Source: a virus
Virus record (IMG/VR): IMGVR_UViG_3300045988_140174
Location: 1 to 34,573 of that record
Direction: 5' to 3' (one strand)
Length of the DNA stretch: 34,573 nucleotides
Position 1 is the first letter of the stretch; each line of letters opens with the position of its first letter. This document shows, one piece after another, positions 1 to 34,573 of the stretch. Position numbers and translations under genes: made by a program. Under the pieces are notes generated by a model. It did not search any database. It saw only the letters and a list, made by a program, of their open reading frames with translations, and was not told where the DNA came from.

Positions 1-3000
1 ATTCAGCATCAAATAAATGATTTTTAGTTAAAGTGCTTTCATCCTTGAAATAAGGATCGCTAGCAGTTTCAATCCACTTATCTGAAGTCTTATTTTTATT
101 ATTCGCAGCAACACGACCACGGATGCGGTTCGCACCACCACGTTGATAGTTACCTTCATTTAACCAAGAATCAATATACTCTAAACGGTTAGATAGGAAT
201 TGTTGACGAGATAGACTTCTATTTCCTTGTAAAGCATAGAAATAAGTACCATTAGTATCAACAGTATATACGCCAGTCGTATCACTACTAATATGTCCAG
301 TAGTACCATCTAAGTAAGAAGCATCATTAGTAATAGTAATATATTTATAATACTCATCTAAGTTAACCGCTACTAATGGACGAGTGCCCAAGTCAGCTAA
401 GTTATTTGTTGTATTATAATCAGTTAAATAATATGATTCAATACGATCAACAGTTTTTAAAGGTGGCTGTTTTAAATTAGAACCAAATACACTAGTAGTA
501 ATACCGCGTAAATGTCTGTATTTAGGAATAATTAAACCAGTTTTAAAATATTTATAGAAGTTATTCCATAAAACACTATCAGAAGTAGAATAGTTACCAT
601 CTTCAGTAGCATCAACATTGTATTCAAATGAAGGAATACCAGTATTATTAATACCTAATTGAGTATCAATATCATAGAAAATTGGATACCAAATATAGTC
701 TCCGCCTTTCTTTTGAGGACCCCAAGAAGCCATCATACAGTTTTTACCACGAGAGTCATAACATTCAAAAATTTCTGTCATAACGAAATATGTAGCCATA
801 TATTCTTTATCGAAGTGGTCACTTAATTCATAAGTAAATTTATCACCACGATACTCTTGTGTGTCATATTTATAAGAGCGATCACCATAAATAATAGTGG
901 TTCCAATATAATATTTATTTGGTTCATAAGTTTCAGCAGTCACATTAGCCTTAGTTACTGCTTTACCACATTTAGCGTTTCCATCATAATTATAATATGT
1001 TTTACTTGCATCAAATGCTTCATCTTTACATAAAACAACTAATCTATCAGCCTTTGTATCTAACTCTTCATCGCTATAAGATTCCAAAGTATAATAACGT
1101 TTATCGGGATTAAATATATCAGTGCTATAACAAGGAACATAGGTAATATTATTATTTTTATCAATTTCACCAGTATATAATTTAGTTTTAATAGCACTAA
1201 ATAATACTGTTCCAACATAAGCAACGATATATTCATGACTATTTTCTTGATTAGGATTATAGTCAGGATTCTTTTTATAATAAGTAGTGCCTTCTATATA
1301 TTCTTTAGCTAAGGTATAAATCTATTCAGAAGTTGATGGATTAGTTGTCATAATATAATGTTTATTACTATCAAATAATTCTTCACCAACATCACAGATT
1401 TTATAAGTACCATTTGATACAACTTTTTCAGTACAAGTACTCCAAACCCAAGCTACAGCGCGTTCCCAATTAGAATAATCTTTCAATAAATGCTGAGCGC
1501 GATTTTCTTGATTTAATGTAATATCATCCTTAGAAAATGTTAATGTTGGGTCTTTCTTACATTCTCCATCAGGAGCCATAATATAATCAAGAATATCTTC
1601 GTCATTATGATAACGATATTCAAATGAGTCTGCTACCACAGGGGCAGATTGAACTGCATTTAATACACGAGAACCATCAGCATTAAATACATCAAATTTC
1701 AAATCTTTGCGGTCTTGTGGGTCACGATATGAGCAGAAGGTACGGCTATTGTTTTCAAACTCCCAACATTCTGCTACTTTAGGCATACTCTTAGTACCAT
1801 CGCCTATAAATTTAGCTTTTGGATCTTTACCAGTAGTGCTGTCAAGTGCGAATCCATATACTTCATCAGAACCTTTATCTAAAAGCATATTGTATATACC
1901 AATAAATTGATAAATAGGCTCTGTGCTACCATCGACTGGTTTCTTTTTATGGAATGCAAGTACACGGAACCCTCGTACAGAAGTACGATAATCATCAGTA
2001 TTTTCAACCTTAAAATCGCTGTATCCAGGTTTCATAATATACCATTTATTATATTTAGGATTACTTGAATCAGCTACTTTTAATTTTGAATAAACAGTTG
2101 GATTTTCAGCCATTAATTTTTGATATAATGCGTATGGACCTAAATCAAAATCTTCTTTGCTGGTAATCACAATATTATCTTCTAAGACTTCATTACTTGC
2201 TGTTTTCGGATTACCCTTATGATTATAATAAGTATAAGTAGTTCCAGGAACATACTCAGTTGTTTCAGTCTCAACAGTTTTGTCAGGGTCTAAAACCTAA
2301 AATGCTTTTGCATTATTATAATCGTCTAATGGATGTTTAGAATAAGCATTTTTAACCATATTTGCAAATCCCATATTATAAGTTCCAGAAGATTCCATGT
2401 AGTCAATCTTCATAGTAAATTTATGAGTTCCGCAAGTATAATTATTAAAATACCAATATTTTTGACGAGTTTTTTCATTGCCACGTTTTACGTAAGCAGT
2501 ATTTTCAATATAAAAAGTATTAGGTTTATAAGGATTAGTTTCGCTAAATGTAACTTCCTTTTCACCATTTTCATCTTCATAATATTTAATTTTTAATTGG
2601 CCAGTAGCAGAATCAACTAGAGGACCTAATGTTGTACTTAAAATATAAGGCTTCTAAGTAGAACCTAATACATCAGCATTATACTATTCTCTAAATGGCC
2701 CACGGTTTAAGAAAATGTTAACACGCTTTTCGCCATCTACCGCATCGTTATTTTTAGTTTTAACTTTATAATTTCTACGAGGATAGAATTCAGATGAAGT
2801 TCCTTGAACGCTCATTGATGCGCTATCACTAATAAATGAAGGACAATGATATTTATAATAAGTTTCAACAGCTTTTTGTTTTTCAGCTGCTGTCGCACCA
2901 TCACCAAATAATTTATCAGCTTTAGCTAATTCTTCCAATTTACCTTTATTATAATACATTTCAAGTGGAGTATTAACAAATTCAACTCCAACATTTAATT

Positions 3001-5512
3001 TAACCTTTTTAGAATAAGGAAGTTTATTTTCACTATCTTCTAATTTAGTAGTATCAAAAATAATATAAGGCATTAATGGGGCATCAGGATGTTCATTATT
3101 ATACTTTATCATATTAGTATAGCTAAATTGGAATTCATCAATAGCAGTATTTTCTTCTGCTAATTTATTTTGATCGTAAATATTTACATTCTCAAAATCA
3201 GCAGCATAATTCATGACAATATCATTAACGTTTAAATCAGTGCGATATACTCGGACCTTATATAAATCAATATCACAGTAATCACTGTTAAATTCAATTT
3301 TATCATTTTCTACAACAAATCCATTTTCTTGAGTGTTTCTAACAACACTAGTTAGTACACCATTTAAATAAATATAAATTAAATTTTGAATTTTTTCTTT
3401 ACTATATTTACATACAACAGATAAAGTAATAATTTTATTTTCTACATAAGATACGTTTACGGTATCAGTACCATTAGAGAAAAACGCATCCTGTGGTCCT
3501 AAACATAAACCAGTAACGGCTTTAGTATTACCAGAAGAGTAACTACCTATAACATTACTTAAATTAATTTGCTTAGCAATATGACTAAATTCTAAATCAT
3601 CATATTCCATTCTACGTTTATTACCATTTTTATCGACAAATTCAACTTCATAAGTTTTTAAATACCAAGCTAAAAATGCATCATAGTTGGTGTATGTAGT
3701 ATTAAATTTGCCAGTTTCTTCATCATAAAATGCTTTATATAATTTTTCATCATTTTTATAACGAGTAATAGTACGAATTAAATTTGAATAATCCTAAACA
3801 TTACGAATTTTGAAAGTTAATTCAATACTATGAGACTGCTCAGTAGCTTGAGAGCCACTAGGATTTGAAAATACAGTGCGACCAATAGGAATAGATAATT
3901 TAGCACCATTACTAATACGTAAACAAGTTTTATTATCTTCATCCGTAGTCCAACCATTATTATACCAATTAAAATTAGTAAAAGTCGCCGCACAAGGTTC
4001 AGCCCCTAGAGCTGTAGAAGAATTTACTAAAGTAGTGCGTTTAGCCAACGTTTCAGAATTAGAACGTCCACTACCTACTGTGTTTAATAAATAAGTTAAG
4101 AAGCCTTGCTTCTAAATACCAAAGTCTGTTCTTGTTGGGTCATTTACAACACGAATTTCAATTTTACGGGTAGTCTCACGCGCTCCATCACCACAAGTAA
4201 TAGTGTAGTGATTAATTACATTTAATTCAGGATTAGCAATTTCAAAAATAGCAAATTTCTTAGAATCTGTAATTGTTTGAGGAGAATAAGAAAGTTCAAT
4301 ATTATTACGTTTAAAATGCACTACTGGGTTTTCAGCCTATGGGTCAAAAACACGGAAAGGAATTTGAATAGTGTCATAATTATAATATTCATCTTTATAG
4401 TCTCCCAACCAAATAATTGGAGGAGCTTGAGGGTCTAAACCATCATAAACAGCTACTTCAAAAATTAAAGGGTCAACTTCAATTCCTTTTTTGCCATTAA
4501 TTGATTGGAATAAACGAATCCAAACTTTATGATAACCATTAACTACAGGGATATATTGTGAAACATTAACAGTCTATAATGTAGCCGAATTAGCGGCTAA
4601 AGATACACTTAAAAATGGTTCATCTTCATTGTCAAAATAATATTCAACAATTTTATCCATAGCGCCATTAACATTACATTGTAATACTAATTTACTAGGC
4701 TCGAAATAACTTAAATTAGAAAAACTACTTGATTCTTGTAATTCTAACTTAGAAGTTTTAAATGTTACTAAACGAGTAACTGTGCTTGGATGATTGGTTT
4801 GACTAGCCACTAATACTAATCTTGAAGAAGCATCGTCTTTAGCCAATTTACCAAATTCAAAAGCATATTTCTCGCCATCAGGCACTTGGAATGTTCCTGA
4901 ATTATATTGGTTGTAATTGGTGCCATCATCAGTATATTCTAACTTCCAATTAATTGTTAGAATAGAGTCATAAGAATTACCCTTTTTATTTTTAGCTGAT
5001 GTGGCGACAAATGTTATTTCTTGAGAACGTCCATTAATTAAGTTAACAGTAGGTAATGAGTCTACAGTTAATTCAATATCAGAAGCTAATGAGCTAGGGT
5101 CATCTCCTCCCCCTCCACCAGCAACAGTTAAACGACGACATAGCACATTTTGAAATGCTCGCTGAACTTTTATTACACGATAAAAACAATTATCACCTAA
5201 ATTGATAATTAAATCATCTTCTTCGGGATACTCTCCGCCTTCAATAGCTCCGATTGGAATATTGATTTCATCTTCTAGTTTTTCAGCATCAGTCGGAGTA
5301 TAATTGGCATAATAAATACCAGAATTACTTCCTGAGCCACCACCACTACCGCTTCCTAAAAGCTTTCGTGATACCATTGTACCATCAGCTTGAGTATAGT
5401 CTATGAAAATTTTACCAGTATCAACTGCAAAATAAACATATCCATCATTAAAACCCATTAAATCTAATTTAGCTTCAGTACCACGAACAGGGATGAATCG
5501 TTTATTGCTCAT
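1..5512 (-). CDS. Tail-fibre / receptor-binding-like large structural protein, 5' portion only (more than 1837 codons; gene continues past the window start). Contains in-frame TAG codons.
   Basis: ATG at 5510-5512 sits 8 nt downstream of AAAGGAG (plus-strand revcomp 5519-5526). ORF-track fragments 4574..5512, 4112..4321, 3794..4048, 2684..3610 and 1322..2170 are all in one frame, and each is terminated by cta (TAG) at 4574, 4112, 3794, 2684, 1322, with a further one at 1295. I translated 1321 down to about 1170 by hand and found no TAA/TGA; 1..1170 was not checked. N-terminus MSNKRFIPVRGTEAKL..DGYVYFAVDTGKIFID carries the same fibre-anchor motif as the two upstream genes. Gly/Ser linkers present (GSGSGGGSGSNSG, GGGGGDD). 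Confidence 0.75.
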
Positions 5513-5562
5513 GCAAGTATCTCCTTTCTATCTTAAATTTTATATAAAACAAAATTATATAT

Positions 5563-5593
5563 AAAAAAAATGGGAGAGGAATTTTCCTCTCCC
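5563..5593 (-). terminator. Rho-independent terminator for the minus-strand fibre gene that ends at 5654.
   Basis: GC-rich inverted repeat GGGAGAGG / CCTCTCCC (5572-5593). On the plus strand it is preceded by an 8-A run (5563-5570), so on the minus strand the hairpin is followed by U8. Confidence 0.7.
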
Positions 5594-5653
5594 AAATTCC
5601 TTCGTTGATTTTTAAAAAAACCACGAATATAATTATTATAGATTGTCCTTAAA

Positions 5654-7297
5654 TTAGAAAGAACCCCAAACCAAATCAGCAGTAACAGTACTACCAGATG
5701 CAGTTAGTTTTAAAGTATCAGATTTTAATACCATCTTTGCATTTTTATCAGATACTAAACTAGTTCCAGCTTGTAAAGTATGTGCTACAGTAACAGTGTT
5801 AGTAGCATCATCACGAGTAGCACTATCTGGACCGGGCTTATATTCTAAAGTCTGGATAGTTTTAGTATTAATACCAGTGATATGACCATTATCATAAGTG
5901 ACAGAATCGATAACATCGAAAGTACCACCATTAGTTAATGATTTGCCATCAGTAGTTGATGTAGTATCATAAGTATCATGCTTGATAGTTACAGATAATT
6001 GATTTGGTGCTGAACCACCATTATCAGTAGAATCAATAACAATGCCATCACCTTCGGTAAAAGCAATTTTACCAACTACTCCACCACCATTACTAGAAGT
6101 AATGGTCATGCTATCGGTTGCACCTGCAGCTTTAAAAATATAAGTAGTATCAATCTATGCATCATCGCCAGAAGGAACATAAGTCCATTCGACATCACCA
6201 ATAGCTAAAACACCATTGGTTTCAGATTTTTTATCTTTGGCAGTTGCAATTAATAAATCGCCAATACCAGCAGTTTTACCAGTAGCATAAGTTAAATTGC
6301 CACCTTGAACTAAGAACATGTCGCCAATATGAATCTCAGCAGCAGTTCCACCCTTTAATACATTGAAACTTGCATCCATAGTAAAGGTAGTGCCACTAGT
6401 GCCAATAGTGCCACGATAAGTCATACCGTCAAGTTTATTAATTAACGCATCGACTTGGTCTTTAGAGTAAACAGGAAGGTCTACTTGTTTAGTATCGCTA
6501 CCAATACCATAATAACTACCATCAACGAAATAACCTAACTTTTGTGTCTTTAAAAGACCAGTAGTTCCAGCAGTATCAGAAGCTCCTACTTGTAATTCAC
6601 CATCATTGTTTAGACCTAAAATAATACCATTTAATTTAGTATCTTTAGATGCAATTTGAATACCATTACTTTTATCAATTTTAGTAACAGTTACATTGTC
6701 GCCGCCTTTGATGTGGACAGTGCTATCATCCTATAATGCGCTACCTAATACTAAATCAATATCATTAGTAGTATTAGCATCCTCTTGAACATTAAGAGTA
6801 TAGGTATCACCAGTAATTGTGAGTGCTTTATTATTAGCCATGGCTACTTGAGCACCCTTAGCTCCAGTAATAGTTACATCAGCTGCGGTAATAGTTTTAC
6901 CAGCATCACTATTAGTACCACCAGTAGTAATCTTAACACCCTTGTCAACTGAAGAAACAACTTGAGTTAGAGCAGTTAAAATAGTATCGTCATCAGGATT
7001 GATTTGCGCCCAAGCAGTACCATTATAATATGCTAAAACATTTTCAGTTACACAATAAGCGATATCGCCTTTAGTAGATACCGTTGTTTTTGCCTTTAAT
7101 GTACTTAAATTATCATAAATTTCAACACTTTTATTTAAAAGAGCCAGTTCATCAGCTTGACCAATATATAAACGACTACTATCAGAAGTTAAATAAAATG
7201 TACCTACTTCCCAGCCCTTTTGAGAATCTTTTAATGTATTTAAACTCGCTTGAGTACCAAGTTTAAATTTTACAGCATTACCAGTATAATCAGCCAT
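5654..7297 (-). CDS. Tail-fibre-like protein, 547 aa, with Thr/Ser/Gly-rich beta-rich shaft. Contains in-frame TAG codons.
   Basis: ATG 7295-7297 with AAAAAGGAG 8 nt upstream; TAA stop 5654-5656. Fragments 6731..7297, 6155..6424 and 5654..6109 share one frame and are separated by cta at 6731 and 6155. N-terminus MADYTGNAVKFKLGTQASLNTL...GTFYLTSDSSRLYIG carries the fibre-anchor motif. Confidence 0.8.
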
Positions 7298-7324
7298 AAT
7301 AAAATCTCCTTTTTATTTTAAAAA

Positions 7325-8263
7325 TTACTCTGAGAGTTCACCCCAAATAATACTCTCATAAACTTTATTAATTTCGTTGACAATATTAGTAGTATCTCCA
7401 GCCGCATAAGCTTTACCGAGGTCATTTAATGAGCCAACAGTAGAATTAAATACCTCAAGCGAAGTATATTCTTCAACAAGTTTCTTTTCAACAGCTTGTA
7501 ACTGAGAAACTTTTGCATATCCAGTTAAATCAGCATTACCAAATGTACCTAATTTTTCTGGTTTTGAGTTGATAAGCATATATTCATCATAAGAATTGTT
7601 ATCATCTCCACTACTATTAGGCACTAAGTAAACAACATTTTCTTTATTATTTTCCGCTGAAGTAATATCTTCTAAGCTGCCGACAGGTTTATAGGTTAAA
7701 TGATTCGCATTAGCGATTTCATTTTTAATAACAGTATTAAAATTATCAACTTGATTTTGTAGATTAACAATTTTAGTACTAATAGTATGAAAATCTTCTT
7801 CGGGCTTTTCCCACTCTAACTTACCAGCAGCTCCTTTTTTCAAATAAGAGCCACTTTCTGCAGTATCAAATCCAATGAGATTTAATTCAGGATTTGACCC
7901 TTCAACAGTTTTAAATTCAAATGTATTAGCATTAACATTAATCTCTAATTGACTAGCTATTAAACTAGCAACATCAGCCAATGATTTACTTTCCCATTTA
8001 CCGCTGTCATTTTTAACTAAAAACGCACCAGCATCAGTTACAGTTTCTAAAACATCACTAATATCAGATAACTTAGTAATATTAGTCTCCGAGCCAGAGC
8101 CACTAATTAATTTATCACCTAAATATAAATATCCATTTTTCTTATCTGCAGATTCATAAATAAAATATAAAGTATTAGGATCTATTAGTTTTCGCGCCTT
8201 TAATGAATTATAAGCAGTTATTGTACCGCGCTAAAACTTTACATAATTAACATTATTTGGCAT
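7325..8263 (-). CDS. Tail-fibre-like protein, 312 aa. Only one in-frame TAG, at 8231.
   Basis: ATG 8261-8263 preceded by GGAAAGGAGATTAAT; TAA stop 7325-7327. Hand translation gives MPNNVNYVKFxRGTITAYNSLKARKLIDPNTLYFIYESADKKNGYLYLGDKLISGSGSE... (x = TAG), continuous with ORF-track fragment 7325..7981. The motif V-K/Q-F-x-R-G-T ... TLYF ... LYLGD resembles the N-terminal anchor domain of prophage tail fibres / HylP-type proteins. Confidence 0.8.
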
Positions 8264-8330
8264 ATTAATCTCCTTTCCTTTAGAATCATTTATAATTATA
8301 AAAGAAATCTTTTCCCTTACTATTGGTATA

Positions 8331-8369
8331 TAAAAAAAGTTGGCCCATAATTAATCCTTATGGGCCAAC
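8331..8369 (-). terminator. Rho-independent terminator between the baseplate block and the fibre genes.
   Basis: Perfect 11-bp inverted repeat GTTGGCCCATA ... TATGGGCCAAC (about 8339-8369). On the plus strand it is preceded by AAAAAAA, which gives a U-run after the hairpin on the minus strand. Coordinates +/-1. Confidence 0.7.
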
Positions 8370-8373
8370 GTTA

Positions 8374-12001: not shown

Positions 12002-12343
12002 TTAACTCCCCTCCTTTTCGTATAAAATATCTATTAATAAATAAGCATCTTGATTTTCATCTATATTAGTTAATGACATTTCATCAAAATTAATAGATGT
12101 TACTACACCAGAGCCCTAAGTCATATCTAATTCATACAAACCAACTCCACCAATCATTATATAGTCTTGATTGGCATTAAGTCTAAATTTAGTACCTGGT
12201 AAACTTTGGATTCCTAATTTTATAATAGGAGTATAATCATCAAAAATTACTCCTGACATTAATTTAGCTTTAGTTATTGTTACTGGATAATTTTTTTCAT
12301 TTAATTCACCAAAATATCGAAACTAAACAACACTTTTAGCCAT
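12002..12343 (-). CDS. Small hypothetical structural-module protein, 113 aa, 2 in-frame TAG.
   Basis: ATG 12341-12343 with GAGAGGAGA 7 nt upstream; TAA stop 12002-12004. Hand translation: MAKSVVxFRYFGELNEKNYPVTITKAKLMSGVIFDDYTPIIKLGIQSLPGTKFRLNANQDYIMIGGVGLYELDMTxGSGVVTSINFDEMSLTNIDENQDAYLLIDILYEKEGS. Confidence 0.6.
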
Positions 12344-12359
12344 TACTCCGTCTCCTCTC

Positions 12360-21100: not shown

Positions 21101-22435
21101 TAAATAAGAATTTACTCTATTCTATAAAATAATATTTAAATTTTTATATCCTTCAAATGAAGTAGCAATATATACTGTAGTATTCCATAAAAATTTACTA
21201 AATAAATTATAATAATTTATTTCTTCTTTTTCTTTACCAATATTTTCTATAACAGAACCTAAATATTCTCCTAAATATAAATCAAATTCTTTTGATTCCA
21301 TAATTAAAGACTCTAAAATACCAGTAGAAATACCACACATATCATTTAATAATGAAACATTATCTCGTAAATATATTCTATACTTTTCTAAAATATTGAC
21401 AACAAATCCTGACTCCTAAATTTGATCAACCCATTCTTTAATTTGCGGGTTATCTGAACTATTTGTTCCTTGATAGAATCGTTTTAATTTTGTCATTAAA
21501 TTTTTAGAATAATTATAATAAGTATTAATACGAGTCATTTCCTTAATAACATTTTCTTGACGAACTACTCGTTCAATACCATGAAAATTAACATTAATAC
21601 ATCCACTATTTGGGTGAGGTTCTGTTGTGATTGAAATACTTTTACTAGGGGCTAATAAAGTTTCTGCTGTTACTCTATACATTGGGCTTGATGCCACATA
21701 TCCATTTAAAGTTGTAACAGTATAAACTAATTTATAAACTTCACTAGTTTTAATGAAACTACTTAAAACGGCTGAATCAGTAGATATTCCATATTCAATA
21801 TCATTAGAATTATTATGTAATAATTCACCAGTAGTATAATATAATTCCCCTTCTTCTGTATAAAATGAAAAATTATAAGAATATACTTTTTCACTCTAAT
21901 CAAAATCAGAAGATAATTCATACAAACCGAATAAATTATTATTAAATAAATTAATACTATCAATTGAATATCCTTTAACTGAAATTTTAGGCTCCTGAAT
22001 ACATTTAATAATACCAATAGTAGAATAGTATCCTGTTAACTTTTTAATAACATCAACTGTAACAGTTTCTTTCGTGTCAGGGTCTTCTTTTGTTTCAGTC
22101 TATGTATATTGTGAAATATAAGCTAATTGTACTTTGTAATACTAGCCTTCATTTAATAAGGCTCCCTAAGAAGGAGGTATAGTAAATGTAACAGTAGAAT
22201 TAGCAGTATTAAAATCCATTGATTCAATTGGATTAAATAAATAAGTATTTGTTGAAGCAGTTTTTAATCGCAAAACAAATCCAACAAATTCTTTATCATT
22301 AACTGCGGCACTCGCAGTAAAAGGAATTGTAATCTAAATATCCTTTAATACTTTCGTGTCGCCTGTTTCAATATAACTCTTACAAAAAGCAGGTAAAGTA
22401 CCTGCTATTACAGGAGGATATAATCTTTCAGGCAT
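15167..22435 (-). CDS. Giant tail-tip / baseplate protein, 2422 aa, in the position usually held by the tail-associated lysin / hub (Tal). Contains in-frame TAG codons.
   Basis: ATG 22433-22435 preceded by AAAGGAGAA; TGA stop 15167-15169. Twelve ORF-track fragments (15437..15736 through 21416..21697) are all in one frame, and the stops checked are cta. Full hand translation found about 41 in-frame TAG and no TAA/TGA before 15167. N-terminus MPERLYPPVIAGTLPAFCKSYIETGDTKVLKDI... Confidence 0.75.
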
Positions 22436-22461
22436 AGTCATTCTCCTTTACCACATAATTA

Positions 22462-25362: not shown

Positions 25363-25436
25363 AATTCGTTCTCCTTTTTCTCATATTCTAATAAATTTTG
25401 AGAAAAAATCTTATTTTATTATTTATATTTGACCAA

Positions 25437-25469
25437 TAAAAAAATGGCGAGGTAATTAAACCTCGCCAT
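25437..25469 (-). terminator. Rho-independent terminator immediately after the TMP stop codon.
   Basis: Perfect 10-bp inverted repeat ATGGCGAGGT (25444-25453) / ACCTCGCCAT (25460-25469) with a 6-nt loop. On the plus strand it is preceded by A7, which gives a U-run after the hairpin on the minus strand. It lies 6 nt below the TAA at 25475-25477. Confidence 0.7.
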
Positions 25470-25474
25470 TTAAA

Positions 25475-28400
25475 TTAAATAGTCTTTCGACTAGCATATT
25501 GACTTGCTTCATTCTCCATCATTTCAAATGCTTCCATAATTTCATTACTATCAGTCACATTCGGGAAATCAGCATTAATAGAAACTTGTTGCATAAATTC
25601 TTGTGCAATTCTATCAACACCAAGAGAAGAAGGAATAAGATTAGATAAATAACTTACAATAGTCTAAACGTTTAATCCTATATTTTGTAATATAGTAGAA
25701 ATATCTAAACTATCCGTTAAAGCAGTATCAATGTTTAATTCATTATTACTCATCCAATTTTCAATTTGTTTATTCATATCTAATTGATCTAACATATCTA
25801 AATAAGAAAGTTGAGAAATATACTCTGGAACTTCTGCTGTTTTATTAAAACTCTCAGAATTACGCTAAGTACTAATTATATTATTTGCTGTTGCAGTTGA
25901 ACGAGAATCAATAGCATTTTCATATTTACCATAATCAATACTATTCATTCCAGATAAAGCTGCTACCATTTCATTCATAGTTTTTACTAAAGCTTCATTC
26001 CGCTTAATTGCACTATCAATTTTAGAAACATAAATAGATTCCCAATCACTCGCTGCTTTAATAACACCATTAAATGATTCTGTAGCATTTTTAACAATTT
26101 TTTCCATATCTGCTACAGCTTTATCTGATTCACCAGTAATTTTAATTGACCATCCAGAAGCCGTATCAGCAAAACTTCCTTCAATACCTGCTGTACTATT
26201 AATTTCTTTAATTTTATTTAAATAATCATCAAGCAATTTATTAGAATCAGCAACATAATTATCATGGCTTTTCCAAAATGCATTAAACATTTCATCTAAT
26301 GTAGAATATCCTGTTTTTAATGCCAAAGTAGTCTAATTAAAATTTTCAACTAATGCACCAGAACTATCTTTATAATATGTTACAAATTTTTCATTAGCAT
26401 CTTTACTATTTTTAAATACTTCTTCATATTGCTAATGAATCTATTGCATACGTTCATCATAATATTTTTCTAAATCAGCAGCCTATTTCTCGTATTCAGC
26501 TTGAGAAATTTCTCCTTGAGTAAATGATAGCTTTATTGCTGTTAACTTTTCTTGATAGTCAGATTGTAATTGAAGAATATTATTTTCTAATGTTTTTAAA
26601 TATTCTTCATTAGCTTTTTGATAAGCATTTAATTTATCTTCATATTCTTGTTCAGCTTCAGCTATTTTGTCTTCATTAGCACTATATACATATCCCCAAT
26701 TACCATTATTATCACGAGTCAAACGAACAGTTTCATTAGAATTTTGAACATCTTCCAATTTCTATCGTGCTAGCTCTAATTCATATTTAGATTGTAAAAT
26801 CTTTAAATCATATTCACTAATTTTAGAACCATCTTTTAATTTTTTATTTAACTCGTCTTGTAATTTATTTAATGCTTGTTTATGAGGAATAATATCAGTA
26901 TCATCAATAGAACCTTCAATTTGACGTCTTAATTTATTTAATTCATAAGTTTTATCAGCATCACTTAAGTACTAATTATTTAATTCATTGGCCCTAGTAA
27001 TAGCATCTTGCAAAGCTTCAATAGAACCATAAATTGGAGATATACCGTCTTCAAATTCTTTGACAATATTATCCATTTCTTCTTCAAAGATATCGCGTGC
27101 TCTTTCTAAAGCTTCTTGCCAAGTATCTAAGAAATTTTCTTCAGCACTATGGACTTGCTCATCAATTTCTTTTAAACTATCACTCCATTGTTTAATTCCA
27201 ATTGAATCTCCATTAGCAACAGCTTTATCATACTATTCTTGAGCATTAGCACGCATTTCTTTTAATGCCTCTACTTGCTATTTAGCTCCAGCAAGATTAT
27301 TAATACTGTTGTTCATTAATGAACGATTTAAATTACGCAATACTAATTTTGATTGCTCATTTAATTGAGCTCCTAATAATGAAGTAATATCTTTAACACC
27401 TTCAAGAATATTCTAATAATGTTCAAATAAATCAATTTGGTCTTGAACATCCTCACTAAATTGATTAAAACTATCAAGGACTTTTTCTTGAATGGTTGCT
27501 CTCATTTCAAGCAATTCCTAATTGGCTTCTAAAATACTAGAACGCCATTCTCGAATTTGATCAATTTCATCTTCAGTGAAATTCTTAGCTTTTAAATCAT
27601 CAACTGTTAATTTATCAAGTTCTTCAATAGAATTAATGCCATGATTATTTAATAACTCTAGTAAACCGTCAGAATAAGTTTTAGTTTTTTCTAAAGCATT
27701 TTCTGCTTTTTCCCCAATTAAAGCAATAGCCTCAGCAGCAGAATAAGCATCATCTTCAATTTTACTTAATAAATAATCAAGATACTCTAACTCATCATCT
27801 TTAACAGCAATCTTAATTTCAATTTTATACTAAGTCTTTTCAAAAATTATATCAGCTAATTCAGTTTGTAAATCATATAATTTTTCCAATTCATCTTGGC
27901 GTAAATTATTAGTTTCTTCATACTGTTCTAAAGCTTCAATAAAATCATCATAAGCTTCTTCAGCCGCCTCATCAGCATCTTCATTTTTACCAATAGACGA
28001 GTTGTATTTATCAATCTGGCGCTTCATAATTTCATCATAATTAGTAATAACACCAGTTTCATCAAATTCGGCGCCATAAGATGCTATTAAAGCTTTATCT
28101 TCATCCCAATATTTATTAATTTCATCAAGATATTGATTCTATAAATCAATCATTTCATCATATTTTTCAATTTCTTGATCCATTAATTCTAATTTAGAAG
28201 TACCAAACGCCCGCTCTTTAGCTTTGGCTAAATGCTCCATTACTTCTTCTAAATCTTCAATTTTTTGTTTAATTACATGATAACGCTCAATTTCATCTTT
28301 ATATTCTTTTGAAGGAGGAGGGGTATAACTGCTTCCACCACCTCCGCCACTATTGTTAGTGGCAGTGGGATTAGTAGTTAAATCAGTTGTTTTCCCACCA

Positions 28401-31400
28401 TACTCTTTACCCGACCAATCAAGAGTTTTAACTGTTGGCACATTAACCATAGTCGTAGTATCAATAGGAACAACAGATGGAGGATCTAAATGATGTCCAT
28501 GTTCATCAATATTACTAGTATAAACAACTGCTTCTTCGTGTGAAGTAACAGGAGTTGGTTCACTTTCAATTTCTGCATCAAATCCCATACTAGCAACAAA
28601 AGCTTGAGCTTGTTCTGCAGTAAAACCAAAGGCTGAAATCAATGTATTTAAAGAAGCAATTGCTTCAGTTGTATCAAATTTTGGATCAAGCTATAATCCA
28701 TTCGCAGCCTCTTGTATCTAAGTAAAACAAGTATTAATTTCTGACTAAACGCTACTTAAAGAATCTCCAAAAGCTGCTTTTAAATCATCTCTACCACTAT
28801 TAGCTATATTTTGTAAAACTTGATTTACCTATTCCCCAGTTGTATAAAATGAACGCTAAGTTGCAATATTTAATTCCGCTAATGCTTTTTGATTACCTTT
28901 TGCTACATCGGGCATTAATTTAGCAACTTTACGAGCATATCTTTTATCTTCTTTATATAATTTTTCAAATGTATCTTTAGATACTCCAGCTAAATCTGAT
29001 AAAGCGTCAGAATTCTATGCAACAAATTCATCAAAAGCTGCTTCATTTTCTGCATTATATTTTTTAGTAAGACTGGTAGAATCATTCATCCAATCTGAAA
29101 ATGCTTTTACTTTATCATTACATTTATCCCAAGAGCCAGCTAATTCATCAACTAGTTCTTGTCCATGAGTGCCTAATGAGCCCATTTCATCTCGTAATTC
29201 ATTAATCGCTCCAGAATCGCCTTCAACAGCCTGTTGTAATTTTCCAAAATTCTCTGTTAAATTATTAGCATCTCCAGCCCAAGCCTTAAAATCATCTTCA
29301 GACATACCGAACATATCAGCGAATGATTCAGAATTACTCGTCAAAAATTCTTGTAATTTTCCAATTTCAGAGGGTAAAGCACTGCCCTATCCCATATTTT
29401 CTAAAGCAGAAGCTTGTTCCTGAATTTTATCTTTATCAAAATTCTATTCATCCCAAGAAGGCTTTAATCGGCTAGCAGCATCAAAAGCTTTTTGGCTATA
29501 AATTTGCTCATCAAAATAATTATCTTGCTAACTCAATCCCCATTGACGAGACTACTCTGCCGCAAAATTCTTCAATATAGTATCATAATCAAAAGTAACT
29601 TCAGAGTTTTCAACAGTTCCGCCATTTTCATCAGTCAATTTTACTGGTATTGTTGTATTACCGCTAGTAAAATCTTGTAACCAATTATCTCTTAATTCAC
29701 TTACTGAGTATCCTTGCTATGATAATAGATTTAAAATTTCAGATTCAGTTAATTCATTACCACTATTACTACCACGTGATGCAATTATTTTATTTTCATA
29801 ATCTATAACATCTTGACTAATTAATTCTCCAATACCATTTCGATATTTTTCATCATATCTTGATAAATCTAGTCCTCGTGAAAGTAATTCATTTAAAACA
29901 TCATTCTAATAAGAATCAGCTAATCTACTTGTTTCAGCAGTTAATTTTTCTAATGCTTCTCTAGTTTCGTGATTTGAAGTAATTAATTTAGCTGTATTTT
30001 CATCTAAACCTGCTTTATTTATTAAGTCTTCTTTACTAAAATCAAAACTAGAATCTTTCATAGCAGCTTTAACTACTTTATTTATTTCTGATGTTGTTAA
30101 TGTATCAGTCGCATTAACAGTATGATAACGATATTCATTAGGTCTAAACTGATATTTTTCTCGCTTTGTTCCTACAACTATGTTTTCATTTTTCTTTGAA
30201 ATTTCTCTAATTTTTGCTTCCAGCTATACCTATTCATCTCTATTGCTCTAAGAATTAACAGCTGTTTGAGCTTTATTCTATTTATCAAGAGCCTGCTATT
30301 TAATCTTATTCTAACCAGATTCAGTTAAATGCTAAATATTATTAACATCATAATACCAATCTTCACCCTTTTTAAGTTGAGAATCAGCATCTGCCATTTT
30401 ATTATAATTATCAATTAAATCTTGAACTTCATTATTTACATCATATAAAGCTTCTCGCCATTCAGTAGTACCATATTTTAAATCTTTAAAAGCATCATAT
30501 TTACTTGATAAACCATCTAAAGATGAAGTTACTTTCTATACTTCAGAATTAACATTATCTAAATTACTTTGTAGTGTTTGTAAATCTTCATTAGATTGTT
30601 TAAGTTCAGTATTAAAAGATTGAGAACGTTTAACTAATGTATAAATAGCAAATCCAACAGCCGCAATTATTGCAGCAATTAATATAAATTTAGCAATTAA
30701 CGGTAATAAACTTACCTGAACCCCTTTTAAAGCAATATTTAATTCTTGAGTCGCTGCAGTTAATCCTTTAGTTGCTAAAGTATTAGTTATTTTAGCAGCT
30801 GTTTCTTTATTTAAACCTAACTCCATTAAATTAGTCTACAATGCATTTAAAGTTTTCTTTTTTGTTGAATCTGAAATTGTTTCATTATTTATTTTATTAG
30901 CAGTACTTTCTAAATAAGTAGCTGCTGTTTCTTTTAATTTAGCTATTTCTAATCCTTCTGTAATAGCTTTTTCAGTTAAAATGGAAGCATTATGCTAATC
31001 TCTAACCTGTTTTAAAAATTGAATTCCTGTGGCCAAACTGTCAATACCACTTTTAACCATAAAACTAAGACTACCAATAGAAGTAAGAATAGCAACAGCT
31101 TTTTCCCACCCAGACATATCAGGATCTTTAATACTACTGATTAAACTATTAATAGAAGAAATCGCCATTCCCGCCGATTGGGCAAATGAAGCCATTGACA
31201 TAAATGCTTCAATACCACCAACTAAATGTTTAGGTTTAAAGTTTTCAACTTGTTTATTTAACTCTTCTTGTTTTTGCTTAGCTTTTTCTTGAGCTTTTTG
31301 CATTTTTTCAAATGACTAAACAACTTTTTTAATTTCATCGTCTCCTACGCCCATGCCTCTTAAAGAAGCAACTAACTAATCTTGAGATAACTTACTACTT

Positions 31401-33820
31401 TGTATAATCTAAATATATTGACGCATTTTAGCCATACGTTTATCTGTACCAGTCTCATCCCAAGGTATTGATGCAATTTCTTTCTCTAAGCTTTGCAGTA
31501 TTCCTAAATCCTAAATATTTTTAGGTAAATTTTCACGGAATAAATTAAAATAAGTTTCAGCTTTAGTGGTTGCAATATCAAAATTATTTAATTCTGGACT
31601 AAATGTCCCCGCGGCATAAGCCTGCTATGCTGATTCATTAGTTAATTGTGTTAATTTATCTAGCTATGATGTAACTTCAGTCGTCATATCATTAAATAAA
31701 TTAGCCACAGGAGTAGTAGCATCCGCATTCAGCCAAGCCTATAAAAGATTATTTACAAGATTATCATTTAATGTATCGAGTTTATTATAATAAGGCTCTA
31801 TTTCATCATATAAATCTTCATATTTTTTTCCCAAACTAGCTTCTCCTTCATTCCCAGGATTATTATGCTAGCTAGCTGAACTCCAAATATCTTCCATCTA
31901 ATTATTATAAGCTTTTGAGATACCTTTTTTATCGCTTACCATTGTATCTTGAGCATCATTTATGATTTTTGTATAAGTATCAATTTCTTGACCTAATTTG
32001 ATAAGCTAATCTCCCTGCTACTGGATACCCTATTTTTCTGTCTCCCAAAATGATTTCTCAGCTGCCGTCATTCTTTCTGAAGCTATAGCTATTTTATCTT
32101 TCATTTCAGAAACACGTTTAGAATTTAATAAACTCTATTTAGATTCTTCATCTAAATTATCACCTTTTTTAGATAAATAATTAGAAGTCTATTCATTTAT
32201 TTGAGTATGAATTTTAGCATAAGCTTTATCAGCTCCACCAACCAATATTTGAATATTGCTAATAACATTTCGTAAAGCAGGCTCAATTTTTGAAGCTAAA
32301 CTCTATTCAACAATAGCTAATATTCCTATTAGTACTGGTTTAAGGCCTCCTATTTTATCAATAAATGAATCAACACCATCAACAGTATCGGCTAAAAAAT
32401 CAGTTAATTTAATAAAAAACTTATCATCAATTAAATCTTGATATAATCCCTAAAATGAAGCCTTCAAACGCTTATTAGCGGCTTCCCAAGACTCTTCATA
32501 AATTTTCTATTGCTCAGTTAATGTTCCAGTAGCATTACGAGCAGTTTCGAGATTTTCTTTCATGAAATCCCATTTATCCATCAATGCAATTAATTGAGTA
32601 TATTGGCGGACACCAGCAACAGTTTGAGCTAATGCCACTTTAGCATCTTTAGAAATTAATGGATTTCCTTCAGCATCAAATGAATTCCATTTTTCGCCTA
32701 AATCATCAAGGATATCATCCATCTCTCGCAATCCACCATCTGCTGTTTTAATAGAAACACCAACAGCTTCAAGAGCTTGAGAATATTTTCCTAATGTAGT
32801 ACCATCTTCAAGAGTTTTTCCCAATTCTAAATCTTGAATACGAGCAAATAATGTTTTAAATGCAGTACCAACCACATCAGCAGATTGACGAGTTGTAGCT
32901 GTTACAGTTGCTAAAGCAGAAGTAGCATATTCATAACTTAAACCTACTGTATTTGACACAGCCGCGAATTTTTCTAATCCAGCCGCAATTTCATCTGTAC
33001 TAGAAGCAGTAGCAGCACCCAACGCCGTCATAACATCAGCATAATATTCTAATGATTGTGATCCATCATAGAAATTATTCCAAACAGCAGTTAATTGCTA
33101 AGAAATTTTATCGGCGCTTTCACCAGCGGCATTAGCCATTTTAATTGTAACAGCAGTTCTATCTTCTACTTCTTTATCAGATAAACCCTGTTGATAGTAA
33201 ATTAAAGAAGCATCAGTATAATTTAATGTAGAAGTACTTAATGCCTTTGCCGCTTTATTTGCTTTATCAGCAAATTTATCCATATAATCAATATTATGAC
33301 CGGTAACAATTCGAATATCATTTAATGATCTGTTTAAATCCTAAGCATAACCATAAGCCCCTTGTAATGCTCCCATTACACTATGAATCATACTTGAAGA
33401 AATCTACCATTTAACTGTATTTTTAACAGTAGTTAAAAAATCCTATAAACGAGCATTTAAGCTAATCATTGGCTAATCAGCCGCAGCTATGGACTAAGCC
33501 AATTTTACAAATGCTTGCTATCCCGTTACTCCCGCATCTAATAAACTTTTAGATAATTTAGTTACATTTGTCTAAGATCTATTTAAACTTGCATTAAGTT
33601 TACTTAAATCATAATTACCAGTAGTTGTATTATAGGCTTCATTTAAATGAAATGCTAACTATCTGGCTGCTTCAGAAGCTTTTTGCATCTATTCTGGTTT
33701 AAGTCCTAAATCAGTACTATATGAAAGTTTAGTTAATAATTGTTGTAATTCTTGAATAGACTATTTTGCTTGAGTAGTATTTGCAGTAAAATCTAATGCA
33801 ACATTTAATTGTTTTGCCAT
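25475..33820 (-). CDS. Tail tape measure protein (TP901/phage-min-tail family), 2781 aa. Contains in-frame TAG codons.
   Basis: ATG 33818-33820 with AAAGGAG 8 nt upstream; TAA stop 25475-25477. All nine ORF-track fragments from 25865..26326 to 33098..33283 are in one frame and each ends in cta. Hand translation of the whole gene reproduced every fragment peptide and found about 75 TAG and no TAA/TGA. Hallmark TMP segment: ...ATSALATVTATTRQSADVVGTAFKTLFARIQDLELGKTLEDGTTLGKYSQALEAVGVSIKTADGGLREMDDILDDLGEKW... Also extensive coiled-coil sequence, a GGGGGSSYTPPP linker and a hydrophobic helix. Confidence 0.85.
30628..30709 (-). other. Predicted transmembrane/hydrophobic helix inside the TMP (SLLPLIAKFILIAAIIAAVGFAIYTLV).
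   Basis: An uninterrupted hydrophobic run of 27 residues inside fragment 30536..30826, flanked by KG..QV and KRSQS. Position calculated from the ORF-track fragment. Confidence 0.5.
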
Positions 33821-33851
33821 AAACGGGACTCCTTTCTCTCATAATATAAAC

Positions 33852-33888
33852 AAAAAAAATGGGTGTGAGAAATAATCTTCTCACACCC
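33852..33888 (-). terminator. Rho-independent terminator between the 174-aa gene and the TMP.
   Basis: Perfect 11-bp inverted repeat GGGTGTGAGAA (33861-33871) / TTCTCACACCC (33878-33888) with a 6-nt loop. On the plus strand it is preceded by A8 (33852-33859), which gives U8 after the hairpin on the minus strand. Confidence 0.7.
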
Positions 33889-33935
33889 ATACACTTGATT
33901 ATTCCTATTTAATTTTAAAAAATTAAATAGTTTAA

Positions 33936-34460
33936 TTATCCCAACTTGGTCAAAACATCTTTTAACAATCCTAATGTTTCAGGATTCTGAATATCATTAG
34001 TTAATTGTTCCATATCAAATGTTGTATCTTTATAATCAGTTGAAATAATATCTAAAATACCTGCCGCAGAATTTTTATACTCATAAATTGAATGAATAGT
34101 TTCTGCTACCCAACTTTTAATTTGAGCATATTCTCCTGGATTAATTTCTCCAAATACTTTAGCAGAAAAACCAGAGCCAACTACTAAATCATATAATTTC
34201 TTTGGGTCTTCTTTTTGCTTATCAGTAAAACTTACATTAGTATAAACCATAATCATTTTTAAAATAGTATGAAGATACACACGAGCAGGATTATAATAAC
34301 CATTCTTATCAATAGAATCATTAATAATCTCTGAAATAAGATTTAACTTATCTCCAATAGGAAGATAATCTTTAACTTCAATAATCTAATCTCCCCATTC
34401 AAAAGTTGATACTTCTGTATTTTTATTTAAATTTAACTTTGAAAATGCTACTTTTGCCAT
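33936..34460 (-). CDS. Hypothetical protein, 174 aa, immediately upstream of the TMP. Its position fits a tail-assembly-chaperone-like gene, but the sequence was not recognised. One in-frame TAG.
   Basis: ATG 34458-34460 with AAAGGAGG 8 nt upstream; TAA stop 33936-33938. One in-frame TAG at about 34382. Continuous with ORF-track fragment 33936..34280. N-terminus MAKVAFSKLNLNKNTEVSTFEWGDxIIEVKDYLPIGDKLNLISEIINDSIDKNGYYNPARVY... Confidence 0.75.
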
Positions 34461-34489
34461 TTCAAAATCCTCCTTTTACACTTATTTAT

Positions 34490-34518
34490 ATTATACTAAA
34501 AATTTAGTTTATTGTCAA
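34490..34518 (-). promoter_or_regulatory. Consensus sigma-70/sigma-A promoter (TTGACA - 17 nt - TATAAT) driving the 174-aa gene.
   Basis: Minus-strand reading TTGACAATAAACTAAATTTTTAGTATAAT. The -35 element is the plus-strand revcomp at 34513-34518 and the -10 at 34490-34495. The spacer is exactly 17 nt. The -10 ends about 30 nt upstream of the ATG. Confidence 0.6.
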
Positions 34519-34573
34519 ATTTTTTACACTATGTAAATTGGTTGTAATTAAATTAGTTATTATATCAACAGTA

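What the first reader, a model, noticed from the sequence alone, without database searches (positions are those of the whole stretch)
1..34573. Amber (TAG) codon is read as sense throughout a phage tail module (table-15-like stop-codon recoding)
Seen directly in the sequence:
- Every minus-strand ORF fragment whose stop I checked ends in cta (TAG), 40 of 40. Examples: 1322, 2684, 3794, 4112, 4574, 6155, 6731, 10448, 11774, 12678, 12921, 13572, 13998, 14571, 15437, 16124, 17270, 18731, 19241, 19757, 20297, 21122, 21416, 22516, 25865, 26483, 27830, 28139, 29015, 30536, 30995, 32507, 33098.
- Successive fragments keep the same frame for 2.9, 7.3 and 8.3 kb. Staying open to TAA/TGA by chance over 2700 codons of 30% GC DNA is effectively impossible.
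- Hand translation through the TAGs gives continuous proteins that reproduce each fragment's peptide and include a textbook TMP segment.
- Every true gene end is TAA (9 genes) or TGA (1 gene, overlapping the next ATG as ATGA), followed within 30 nt by AAAGGAG+ATG or by a terminator hairpin.
- Trp is encoded by TGG and TGA is never in frame, so this is not a Mollicutes-type code.

From established knowledge: amber reassignment (usually to Gln, translation table 15) is documented in crAss-like, Lak and other uncultivated gut phages, where recoded codons concentrate in late structural and lysis genes. Which amino acid TAG encodes here cannot be read from this window; Gln is a precedent-based guess. 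I count roughly 250 in-frame TAG, with density from about 0.3% (312-aa fibre gene) to about 2.7% of codons (TMP). This is high even for recoded phages.
Basis: partly seen in the sequence, partly recalled or inferred. Interest (0 to 1): 0.9.

Follow-up and report, generated by a model that had tools for sequence, protein, structure and literature searches.

The report
Amber codon read as glutamine

Summary
Reading TAG as sense merges 34 fragments into 10 co-directional genes of 113 to 2781 codons. These include a tape measure protein with a Pfam PF10145 domain. There are 177 in-frame TAGs, not about 250. They make up 1.57% of codons and 36% of all Gln codons. The nine gene ends in the window are 8 TAA and 1 TGA, and the four strongest terminators sit just after TAA stops.

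TAG means Gln. Against a 95%-identical relative, 7 of 8 changes at TAG sites are to Gln codons. At conserved columns, standard-code relatives carry Gln (g10 position 573: 24 of 24; NrdD: 4 of 5 sites). A public protein collection already holds the g5 orthologue with Q at all 19 TAG sites.

The phage is a large siphovirus of Bacillota. Its closest published relative is the code-15 phage Phass-1 (major capsid protein 50% identical).

I found no suppressor tRNA and no release factor in the window or in about 110 kb read from near-identical genomes. About one third of the genome could not be read.

Verdict: correct interpretation, and a new member of a known kind. Interest is moderate to low.

The parts
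34490..34518 (-). Sigma-70-type promoter TTGACA-N17-TATAAT upstream of g1
   Evidence: It is the only 12/12 consensus match in the window, and the sequence was read directly.
33936..34460 (-). g1: 174 aa, 1 in-frame TAG (codon 25), stop TAA. Small protein upstream of the tape measure gene.
   Evidence: ORF and AAAGGAGG ribosome-binding site. It matches phrog_30570 at E 8.7e-12. Orthologues 97-99% identical exist in 7 IMG/VR contigs.
33859..33890 (-). Intrinsic terminator after the g1 TAA stop
   Evidence: A 14-pair stem followed by T8. ViennaRNA fold of the gap gives -33.2 kcal/mol.
25475..33820 (-). g2: tape measure protein, 2781 aa, 64 in-frame TAG (2.30% of codons), stop TAA
   Evidence: Pfam PF10145 PhageMin_Tail at E 4.3e-22 over residues 188-383. 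TAG count. TAG supplies 36% of its Gln codons.
25442..25471 (-). Intrinsic terminator after the g2 TAA stop
   Evidence: A 12-pair stem followed by a T-run.
22462..25362 (-). g3: 966 aa tail protein, 20 in-frame TAG, stop TAA
   Evidence: Orthologues in L001 and L002 are 96% and 48% identical and are also TAG-containing.
15167..22441 (-). g4: 2424 aa tail protein, 41 in-frame TAG, stop TGA overlapping the g5 start as ATGA
12360..15170 (-). g5: 936 aa baseplate/tail protein, 19 in-frame TAG (56% of its Gln codons), stop TAA
   Evidence: It matches phrog_32343 (E 1e-32) and phrog_1887 'tail protein'. tblastn finds Phass-1 and Enterococcus EF1-like phages. Public protein P0001 is 95% identical and has Q at all 19 TAG sites.
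12002..12343 (-). g6: 113 aa, 2 in-frame TAG, stop TAA
8375..12001 (-). g7: 1208 aa tail protein, TTG start directly after the g6 stop, 19 in-frame TAG, stop TAA
   Evidence: AAGGAGG lies 8 nt upstream of the TTG. Counts.
8339..8369 (-). Intrinsic terminator after the g7 TAA stop
   Evidence: A 12-pair stem followed by T7.
7325..8263 (-). g8: 312 aa fibre-like protein, 1 in-frame TAG (codon 11), stop TAA
   Evidence: It aligns end to end with standard-code relatives across the TAG.
5654..7297 (-). g9: 547 aa fibre-like protein, 2 in-frame TAG, stop TAA
   Evidence: Its table-11 N-terminal fragment occurs in human gut metagenome assemblies.
5571..5594 (-). Intrinsic terminator after the g9 TAA stop
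   Evidence: A 10-pair stem followed by T8.
2..5512 (-). g10: N-terminal 1837 aa of a giant fibre protein, 8 in-frame TAG. It runs off the window. The nearest relative's copy sits in a 2725-codon open frame with 15 TAG.
   Evidence: One HSP of about 1955 aa spans all 8 TAGs against standard-code relatives. The TAG at codon 573 aligns with Q in 24 of 24 standard-code relatives.

Best explanation
The window is the tail module of a large, low-GC siphovirus from the human gut. Its relatives' genomes are about 130-200 kb, and its structural proteins relate it to phages of Bacillota. UAG is decoded as glutamine (translation table 15), and only UAA and UGA terminate.

Shown here:
- TAG is a sense codon in all ten genes.
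- It stands for Gln.
- It supplies 36% of Gln codons and outnumbers CAG six to one.
- Real gene ends are TAA or TGA, followed by ribosome-binding sites or terminators.

Shown in a 95%-identical relative:
- TAG use is strongly uneven across the genome. It is 1.28% of codons in the structural module and 0.25% in replication genes.
- It is zero in the major capsid, tail-tube-like, DnaE, DnaB and primase genes.
- It is essentially zero in a roughly 20 kb GC-rich block of small genes on the opposite strand. That block uses TAG neither as stop nor as sense.

Inferred from the published model for recoded phages:
- The TAG-free genes are translated first, under the host's standard code.
- A UAG-decoding activity then appears, most likely a phage suppressor tRNA-Gln(CUA) competing with host release factor 1. 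This opens translation of the TAG-rich late genes.
- That decoding component was not found in the parts of the genome I could read.
For: Open frames. Starts with Shine-Dalgarno sites. Terminators only after TAA stops, and a consensus promoter before g1.

TAG = Gln:
- Window versus the 95% relative: 78 TAG-TAG columns and 8 changes, of which 7 are Gln and 1 is Glu.
- Window versus the 65% relative: 29 TAG-TAG columns and 83 changes. Gln is the most frequent partner (23), and Gln is the best-fitting residue by more than 50 log-likelihood units.
- Standard-code relatives have Q in 24 of 24 at g10 codon 573.
- In the relative's terminase, portal, protease and NrdD genes and their neighbours, Q is the majority residue at 24 of 47 TAG sites. 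NrdD has 4 of 5 sites with invariant Q.
- A JGI protein, whose calling code I did not check, has Q at 3 of about 15 aligned g5 TAG sites against a 2.5% Q background.

Alignments span the TAGs. Independent assemblies carry the same TAGs. Uneven TAG use and the TAG-free GC-rich block.

Precedent comes from Borges et al. (10.1101/2021.08.26.457843), from Peters et al. (PMC9523058), who gave proteomic proof of TAG=Gln in crAss-like phages, and from Babkin et al. (PMC10607447).
Against: No tRNA was found in the window. None was found in 100.5 kb of the nearest relative or in several hundred related loci. That holds for ARAGORN. Rfam at its gathering scores also found nothing on 135 kb, the window included, and Rfam at E<=0.5 found nothing on about 121 kb of the relative. 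No release-factor GGQ motif occurs in any locus fetched up. The decoding machinery is therefore unidentified. The host, and hence its code, is unknown. Early versus late expression is inferred from gene content, not measured. Replication genes such as nrdD, recJ and a helicase also carry a few TAGs, so the switch is not a clean split between structural and other genes.
Confidence: 0.9

Rival explanations
1. UAG is read as Gln without any phage-encoded canonical suppressor tRNA. The decoder could be a host tRNA, or near-cognate reading by host tRNA-Gln after release factor 1 is inactivated or titrated. It could also be a non-canonical RNA that standard tRNA finders miss.
For: No tRNA gene was found in the window. 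None was found in 100.5 kb of the 168 kb nearest relative, in 10 kb more of 97-99% identical contigs, or in about 20 kb of a 64% relative. Positive controls worked: ARAGORN found the Phass-1 tRNA(cta) pair and a tRNA(tca) in a TGA-recoded relative. Published surveys find Sup-CTA tRNAs in only 40-52% of code-15 phages.
Against: About 38-58 kb of the genome could not be read. In Phass-1 the 32-tRNA array, which includes a Sup-CTA, lies next to the nicotinamidase and PRPP-synthetase genes. The syntenic stretch in this lineage is exactly the unread part. No candidate inhibitor of release factor 1 was identified.
Confidence: 0.2
2. The host itself uses a code in which UAG is sense. The phage then simply matches its host, as code-25 phages match Absconditabacteria, and there is no temporal switch.
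For: The host is unidentified. Replication genes also contain some TAGs. Phage contigs were binned with assorted low-GC MAGs, which says nothing about their code.
Against: Many genes avoid TAG completely: MCP, tail tube, DnaE (1317 aa), DnaB, primase, and 37 genes of the GC-rich block with 1 TAG in 4059 codons. Close relatives use the standard code or recode TGA instead, which is hard to reconcile with a host-imposed code. In phages that match a recoded host, about 90% of genes carry the recoded codon. From my own knowledge, no bacterium with UAG=Gln has been described.
Confidence: 0.05
3. TAG encodes an amino acid other than Gln, such as pyrrolysine, Tyr, Trp, Glu or Lys.
For: Many TAG sites lie in variable columns where relatives carry E, K, N, T and other residues. 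ARAGORN labels CUA tRNAs 'Pyl' by default.
Against: Gln is by far the best fit in every sufficiently close comparison. It is the invariant residue at conserved columns. The spread over E, K and R at variable sites is what Gln positions show generally. No pyl genes were seen.
Confidence: 0.03
4. The fragments are pseudogenes of a decaying prophage, or an assembly or sequencing artefact.
For: Under table 11 the region looks like a field of short fragments.
Against: Only one of the three stop codons interrupts the frames, and the frames never shift. The same TAGs are conserved in independently assembled contigs from many samples. Ribosome-binding sites, a promoter and terminators are intact.
Confidence: 0.01

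Closest known systems
Phage Phass-1 and the proposed Phassvirus group (Babkin et al. 2023, PMC10607447; GenBank OQ749652; NCBI 'Caudoviricetes code 15 clade')
   Same: It is a human-gut siphovirus-type genome of about 136 kb with TAG read as Gln in terminase, portal, tape measure (3149 aa) and fibre genes. Its proteins are homologous: MCP 50% and g5 28% identical. It shares nrdD/nrdG, thyX and NAD-salvage genes. It has the same standard-code relatives, the Enterococcus EF1-like phages.
   Different: There is no nucleotide-level similarity, and protein identity is far below genus level. Phass-1 has 36 tRNAs including three Sup-CTA, two of them next to nrdD. This lineage has none next to nrdD, and none anywhere in the roughly 110 kb read.
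[quoted passage not shown] 2021/2022; Peters et al. 2022, PMC9523058)
   Same: The same reassignment (UAG to Gln) with TAA and TGA kept as stops. Recoding is concentrated in structural and late genes, early genes are compatible with both codes, and the genomes are low in GC.
   Different: The virion genes are unrelated, and tblastn hits go to siphoviruses of Bacillota. Strong Shine-Dalgarno sites also point, in my judgement, to a Bacillota rather than a Bacteroidota host. No suppressor tRNA or RF2 gene was seen here.
Agate, Jade and Sapphire clades of Borges et al. (large gut phages with codes 11, 15 and 4 inside one clade)
   Same: Genome size is 120-200 kb. They occur in human and animal guts. 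Very close relatives differ in code: among contigs sharing this phage's fibre domain, 45 are TAG-recoded, 31 standard and at least 3 TGA-recoded. Structural genes are recoded, and replication genes variably so.
   Different: Membership could not be tested, because no sequences of those clades were available to me. It rests on resemblance to the description read.
Enterococcus phages EF1, EF5, H1 and VRE9, plus SPbeta-like and Bacillus Kirov-like large siphoviruses
   Same: They have a homologous major capsid protein (41% and about 23% identity) and a homologous N-terminal domain of g5 (38%). Genomes are 124-169 kb. A YorF-family gene occurs in a relative.
   Different: According to Babkin et al., EF1 shows no stop-codon recoding; I did not check the code of the others. 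They are cultured on known hosts.

Membership tests
Code-15 (UAG=Gln) recoded Caudoviricetes | In-frame TAG codons in otherwise intact phage genes; reading them as sense restores full-length ORFs and coding density | tested here: met
   The 34 fragments become 10 genes, and ORF content rises from 6327 to 11740 aa. There are 177 in-frame TAGs.
Code-15 (UAG=Gln) recoded Caudoviricetes | TAG columns align with glutamine in homologues | tested here: met
   Examples: 7 of 8 substitutions against the 95% relative are Gln; Q in 24 of 24 at g10 codon 573; NrdD has 4 of 5 sites with invariant Q.
Code-15 (UAG=Gln) recoded Caudoviricetes | TAA and TGA remain the only terminators | tested here: met
   The window has 8 TAA and 1 TGA gene ends, followed by ribosome-binding sites or terminators. 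In the relative's GC-rich block, a table-11 gene call gives 21 TAA, 16 TGA and no TAG stops.
Code-15 (UAG=Gln) recoded Caudoviricetes | Phage-encoded suppressor tRNA with anticodon CUA (present in about 40-52% of such genomes, so typical rather than obligatory) | tested here: inconclusive
   None in the window or in about 110 kb of near-identical genomes.
Code-15 (UAG=Gln) recoded Caudoviricetes | Recoded codons enriched in late structural and lysis genes, with a set of genes compatible with both codes | tested here: met
   In the 95% relative TAG is 1.28% of codons in structural genes and 0.25% in replication genes. It occurs once in 4059 codons in the GC-rich block.
Code-15 (UAG=Gln) recoded Caudoviricetes | Peptides with Gln at UAG positions | not testable with these tools
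   This needs virion proteomics.
Phassvirus genus (Phass-1, BK046881, BK025033) | Nucleotide identity of about 80% or more and collinear genomes | tested here: not met
   Megablast against INPHARED found no hit. Protein identity is 28% for g5 and 50% for MCP. The phage belongs to the wider related group, not to the genus.
Agate, Jade and Sapphire clades (Borges et al.) | Placement inside the clade on the large-terminase tree | not testable with these tools
   No reference sequences of those clades were available. Only descriptive features match.
Code 4 / Mollicutes-type (UGA=Trp) | In-frame TGA at Trp positions | tested here: not met
   There is one in-frame TGA, which is the g4 stop. There are 120 TGG codons, and making TGA sense lengthens no ORF.
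Pyrrolysine decoding of UAG | TAG at a few specific positions, with pylTSBCD genes | tested here: not met
   The 177 TAGs are spread through all genes and align with Gln. No tRNA or pyl gene was seen.

The most novel reading that the evidence does not exclude
This widespread gut lineage may decode UAG as Gln without any phage-encoded canonical suppressor tRNA or release factor. It also has a sharply two-part genome: a block of about 20 kb at 44-50% GC that is free of TAG both as stop and as sense, and an AT-rich remainder in which TAG has largely replaced CAG. If so, it would be a tractable case for the open question of how the roughly half of code-15 phages without a detectable Sup-CTA tRNA switch the code. 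Candidate routes are inactivation of RF1 with near-cognate reading by host tRNA-Gln, or a non-canonical decoder. A stand-alone YqeY (tRNA-Gln-binding-type) gene in a relative is a lead.
Probability: 0.15. Interest if true: 0.65.

Novelty: new member of a known kind. Interest (0 to 1): 0.33.

Why it matters
In practice, any table-11 annotation of this region yields dozens of meaningless fragments. Table 15 yields ten tail genes, among them three giant proteins of 2400 to 2800 residues. In biology, it adds a Bacillota-type large siphovirus lineage to the phages that read amber as glutamine. TAG use here is heavy (36% of Gln codons). Very close relatives use the standard code or recode TGA instead, which makes the group useful for studying how quickly codes change. 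The phenomenon itself is established, including by proteomics in other phages, so a specialist would not be surprised. The one open point of wider interest is that no decoding machinery was found.

Tried and rejected
- Pfam on g1, g3 and g5-g10 gave no hits. PHROGs gave only weak hits or hits of unknown function. g4 was not scanned.
- Megablast of 22.5 kb against INPHARED gave no match.
- Hunt for a suppressor tRNA. I walked along IMGVR_UViG_3300045988_120995 and its relatives with all 8 viral scans. I also used the metagenome scan, the genome scan, all 3 homology searches and 2 contig look-ups. ARAGORN found nothing. Rfam found nothing on the window at gathering scores, nor on the nearest relative's loci at gathering scores or at E<=0.5.
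- A regex for the release-factor GGQ motif in six-frame translations of the loci fetched up to then found nothing.
- The 1.8 kb GC-rich stretch upstream of the terminase genes (L106 1-2000) was considered as a possible large structured RNA. I rejected this. It contains small reverse-strand ORFs and repeated operator-like motifs, and it has no Rfam hit.
- MT835469 (176 kb) was fetched whole as a possible complete relative. It is only about 31% identical in g5, is not clearly TAG-recoded (possibly TGA in part) and has 4 ordinary tRNAs.
- Test for TAGs clustering at the 5' ends of genes: there is a trend only (Monte-Carlo p=0.055; KS p=0.41).
- MAG bin names (Mollicutes, Clostridia, Bacteroidales, Treponema and others) were rejected as host evidence, because they are mutually inconsistent.

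Full report
**Observation**

The window is 34,573 bp at 28.6% GC. No plus-strand ORF reaches 100 aa under table 11. The minus strand has 34 such ORFs, summing to 6327 aa. If TAG is read as sense, the minus strand has 13 open frames summing to 11,740 aa, the longest being 2788, 2427, 1846+, 1209, 973 and 945 codons. Making TGA sense changes nothing.

With start codons chosen behind Shine-Dalgarno sites (AAAGGAG and similar), this gives ten co-directional genes, g1 to g10. They hold 177 in-frame TAGs in 11,298 codons, or 1.57%.

In the other two frames of the same genes, TAA+TGA make up 3-18% of triplets. The chance that the coding frames stay open is therefore between 1e-4 (g1) and 1e-65 (g2). 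In-frame TGA occurs once, as the g4 stop, which overlaps the g5 ATG as ATGA. TAA occurs eight times, always as a gene end. Trp is TGG, 120 times.

The four gaps longer than 100 nt after TAA stops each contain a GC-rich hairpin of 10-14 pairs followed by a T-run. These are the four strongest minus-strand terminator matches in the window. The only perfect TTGACA-N17-TATAAT promoter lies upstream of g1.

There are 177 TAGs, not about 250. The maximum density is 2.30%, not 2.7%. There are nine complete gene ends, not ten.

**What TAG encodes**

Relatives were fetched from IMG/VR. The window is about 95% identical in nucleotides to contigs 3300045988_120995 (168 kb) and _125321. More distant relatives (65% and 35-50% protein identity in g5) are also broken only by TAG.

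- In codon-aware alignments against the 95% relative, there are 78 conserved TAG-TAG columns and 8 changes. Seven changes are to Gln codons and one to Glu.
- Against the 65% relative there are 29 TAG-TAG columns and 83 changes. Gln is the commonest partner (23), against a Gln background of about 2.5%.
- A likelihood comparison using substitution patterns from the same alignments puts Gln ahead of the next residue by more than 50 log units.
- Standard-code relatives exist. A single tblastn HSP of about 1955 residues spans all eight TAGs of g10 with no stop in the subject. The one TAG in a conserved column (codon 573) aligns with Q in 24 of 24.
- In the 95% relative, 47 TAG sites in the terminase, portal, protease, RecJ, helicase, NrdD and NrdG genes and their neighbours were compared with standard-code relatives. 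Q is the majority residue at 24 of them. Four of five NrdD sites are invariant Q.
- Pfam PF10145 matches the tape measure protein over residues 188-383, across a TAG.
- The public protein collection already contains the g5 orthologue (P0001, 95% identical) with Q at all 19 TAG sites. Automated code-15 gene calling has therefore already handled this lineage.

**Pattern of use**

TAG supplies 36.5% of Gln codons in the window (177 TAG, 279 CAA, 29 CAG), and 56% in g5. The fibre genes g8-g10 use it much less: 11 of 74 Gln codons, against 165 of 406 in g2-g7 (Fisher p = 1e-5). They are also richer in GC. In addition, g10 is 95% identical to a contig whose other tail genes are only 47-69% identical. 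Together this suggests a recent exchange of the fibre module.

I assembled 100,553 bp of contig 120995 from overlapping loci without any conflict.

| Region of the relative | TAG use |
|---|---|
| Structural module (terminase to distal fibres, more than 60 kb) | 24 of 28 genes; 1.28% of codons |
| Replication and nucleotide-metabolism genes | 0.25% of codons |
| MCP, tail-tube-like, DnaE (1317 aa), DnaB, primase | zero |
| GC-rich block, about 20 kb at 42-53% GC | 1 in-frame TAG in 4059 codons |

The GC-rich block lies next to the terminase genes and holds about 37 small genes on the opposite strand. Its stops are 21 TAA, 16 TGA and no TAG. Those genes read identically under either code.

**Mechanism**

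This pattern matches the published model. Genes compatible with both codes are expressed first. A later change in decoding then opens the TAG-containing late genes (Borges et al.; Peters et al.). I could not find the decoder.

- The window has no tRNA.
- I spent every collection scan walking the nearest relatives in both directions from the window. ARAGORN, through the tool and run locally, found no tRNA in contig 120995 positions 67,905-168,457.
- It also found none in the 10 kb beyond recJ in 97-99% identical ENA contigs. The same holds for about 20 kb further (ligase, gyrase, amidase, NAD salvage, RNA ligase) in a 64% relative.
- Rfam at its gathering scores found nothing on 135 kb that included the window. 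At E<=0.5 it found nothing tRNA-like on about 121 kb of the relative.
- Controls worked. The two Phass-1 tRNA(cta) genes and a tRNA(tca) in a TGA-recoded relative were detected.
- No release-factor GGQ motif occurs in any locus fetched up to that point.

In Phass-1, the closest published relative, two Sup-CTA genes sit beside nrdD. A third lies in a 32-tRNA array next to the nicotinamidase and PRPP-synthetase genes. In this lineage nothing sits beside nrdD, and the stretch syntenic to the array is the part I could not read. The absence is therefore unproven. Published surveys find Sup-CTA tRNAs in only 40-52% of code-15 phages.

**Identity**

The capsid protein of the relative matches Phass-1 at 50% and Enterococcus EF1-like phages at 41%. 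It matches SPbeta-like and Bacillus Kirov-like large siphoviruses at about 23%. g5 matches Phass-1 at 28% and the EF1 group at 38% over its N-terminal domain. Strong Shine-Dalgarno sites fit a Bacillota host.

Samples are human gut metagenomes, and more distant relatives occur in ruminant and other animal guts. MAG bin labels are mutually inconsistent and were not used as host evidence.

Among contigs sharing the g10 fibre domain, 45 are TAG-recoded, 31 use the standard code and at least 3 are TGA-recoded. The terminase-side and nrdD-side markers show a similar mix. This fits the description of the Agate, Jade and Sapphire clades, but I could not test membership.

**Verdict**

The phenomenon is well established, and pipelines already translate this lineage with table 15. 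It is therefore a new member of a known kind, of moderate to low interest. The unresolved decoder, the GC-rich code-neutral block and the mix of codes among close relatives are the parts worth following up.

Noticed in passing
L186 9000-20234 and L275 1-17517 (IMGVR_UViG_3300045988_120995, about 148-168.4 kb); outside the window: A block of about 20 kb at 42-53% GC sits inside a 28-31% GC phage. It holds about 37 small genes on the strand opposite the structural module and uses TAG neither as stop nor as sense. It is conserved in 6-7 related contigs. It may be an early, code-neutral module or an acquired element.
   Followed up: partly
L106 700-1440 (between the GC-rich block and the terminase genes of the relative): Several direct and inverted copies of a TGTTAAAAATTTAACAATCT-like motif lie in a non-coding stretch. 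They look like operators or iterons. A roughly 100 nt element at L106 1800-1915 is conserved at 73-79% in more distant relatives.
   Followed up: partly
window 2-8263 (g8, g9, g10): The fibre genes have a much lower TAG share (11-17% of Gln codons against 36-56% in g2-g7) and higher GC. g10 is 95% identical to a contig (L002) whose other tail genes are 47-69% identical. This points to recent exchange of the fibre module, possibly with standard-code phages.
   Followed up: partly
L044, L045, L047, L095, L096, L099, L262 (relatives): Some close relatives carrying the same fibre and nrdD markers are recoded at TGA instead of TAG. L262 carries a tRNA(tca) about 4 kb from nrdD. The code differs among close relatives.
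   Followed up: partly
L384 2302-2757 (Logan ERR4096535_518, a 64% relative): A stand-alone YqeY gene (PF09424) lies among NAD-salvage genes. From my own knowledge, this domain resembles the tRNA-Gln-binding C-terminal domain of GatB. An RNA ligase and Metallophos/AAA_33 genes that look like tRNA repair lie nearby. A link to charging or handling a Gln suppressor tRNA is conceivable.
   Followed up: no
L012 2468-3610 and 7692-8795 (relative; upstream of the window's g1): The major capsid protein (12 Gln) and the tail-tube-like protein (8 Gln) contain no TAG at all, although they sit among TAG-rich genes. This suggests that the most highly expressed virion proteins avoid the recoded codon.
   Followed up: partly
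window, first TAG of each gene: In 7 of 10 genes the first TAG lies within codons 7-36, for example g6 at 7, g8 at 11 and g5 at 14. That would abort translation early under the standard code. The trend is not significant (Monte-Carlo p=0.055).
   Followed up: yes
L021-L024 (MT835469, 176 kb, human faeces, Mexico): This unannotated GenBank phage is distantly related in g5 (31%). Its ORF coverage rises more with TGA as sense (0.78 to 0.86) than with TAG, mainly in its first 30 kb. It may be a partly TGA-recoded genome deposited without annotation.
   Followed up: partly
L186 17199-17966 (relative): A GIY-YIG-type endonuclease ORF in the otherwise TAG-free GC-rich block carries one in-frame TAG just after its YIG motif. 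This recalls the recoded homing endonuclease reported in Agate phages.
   Followed up: no
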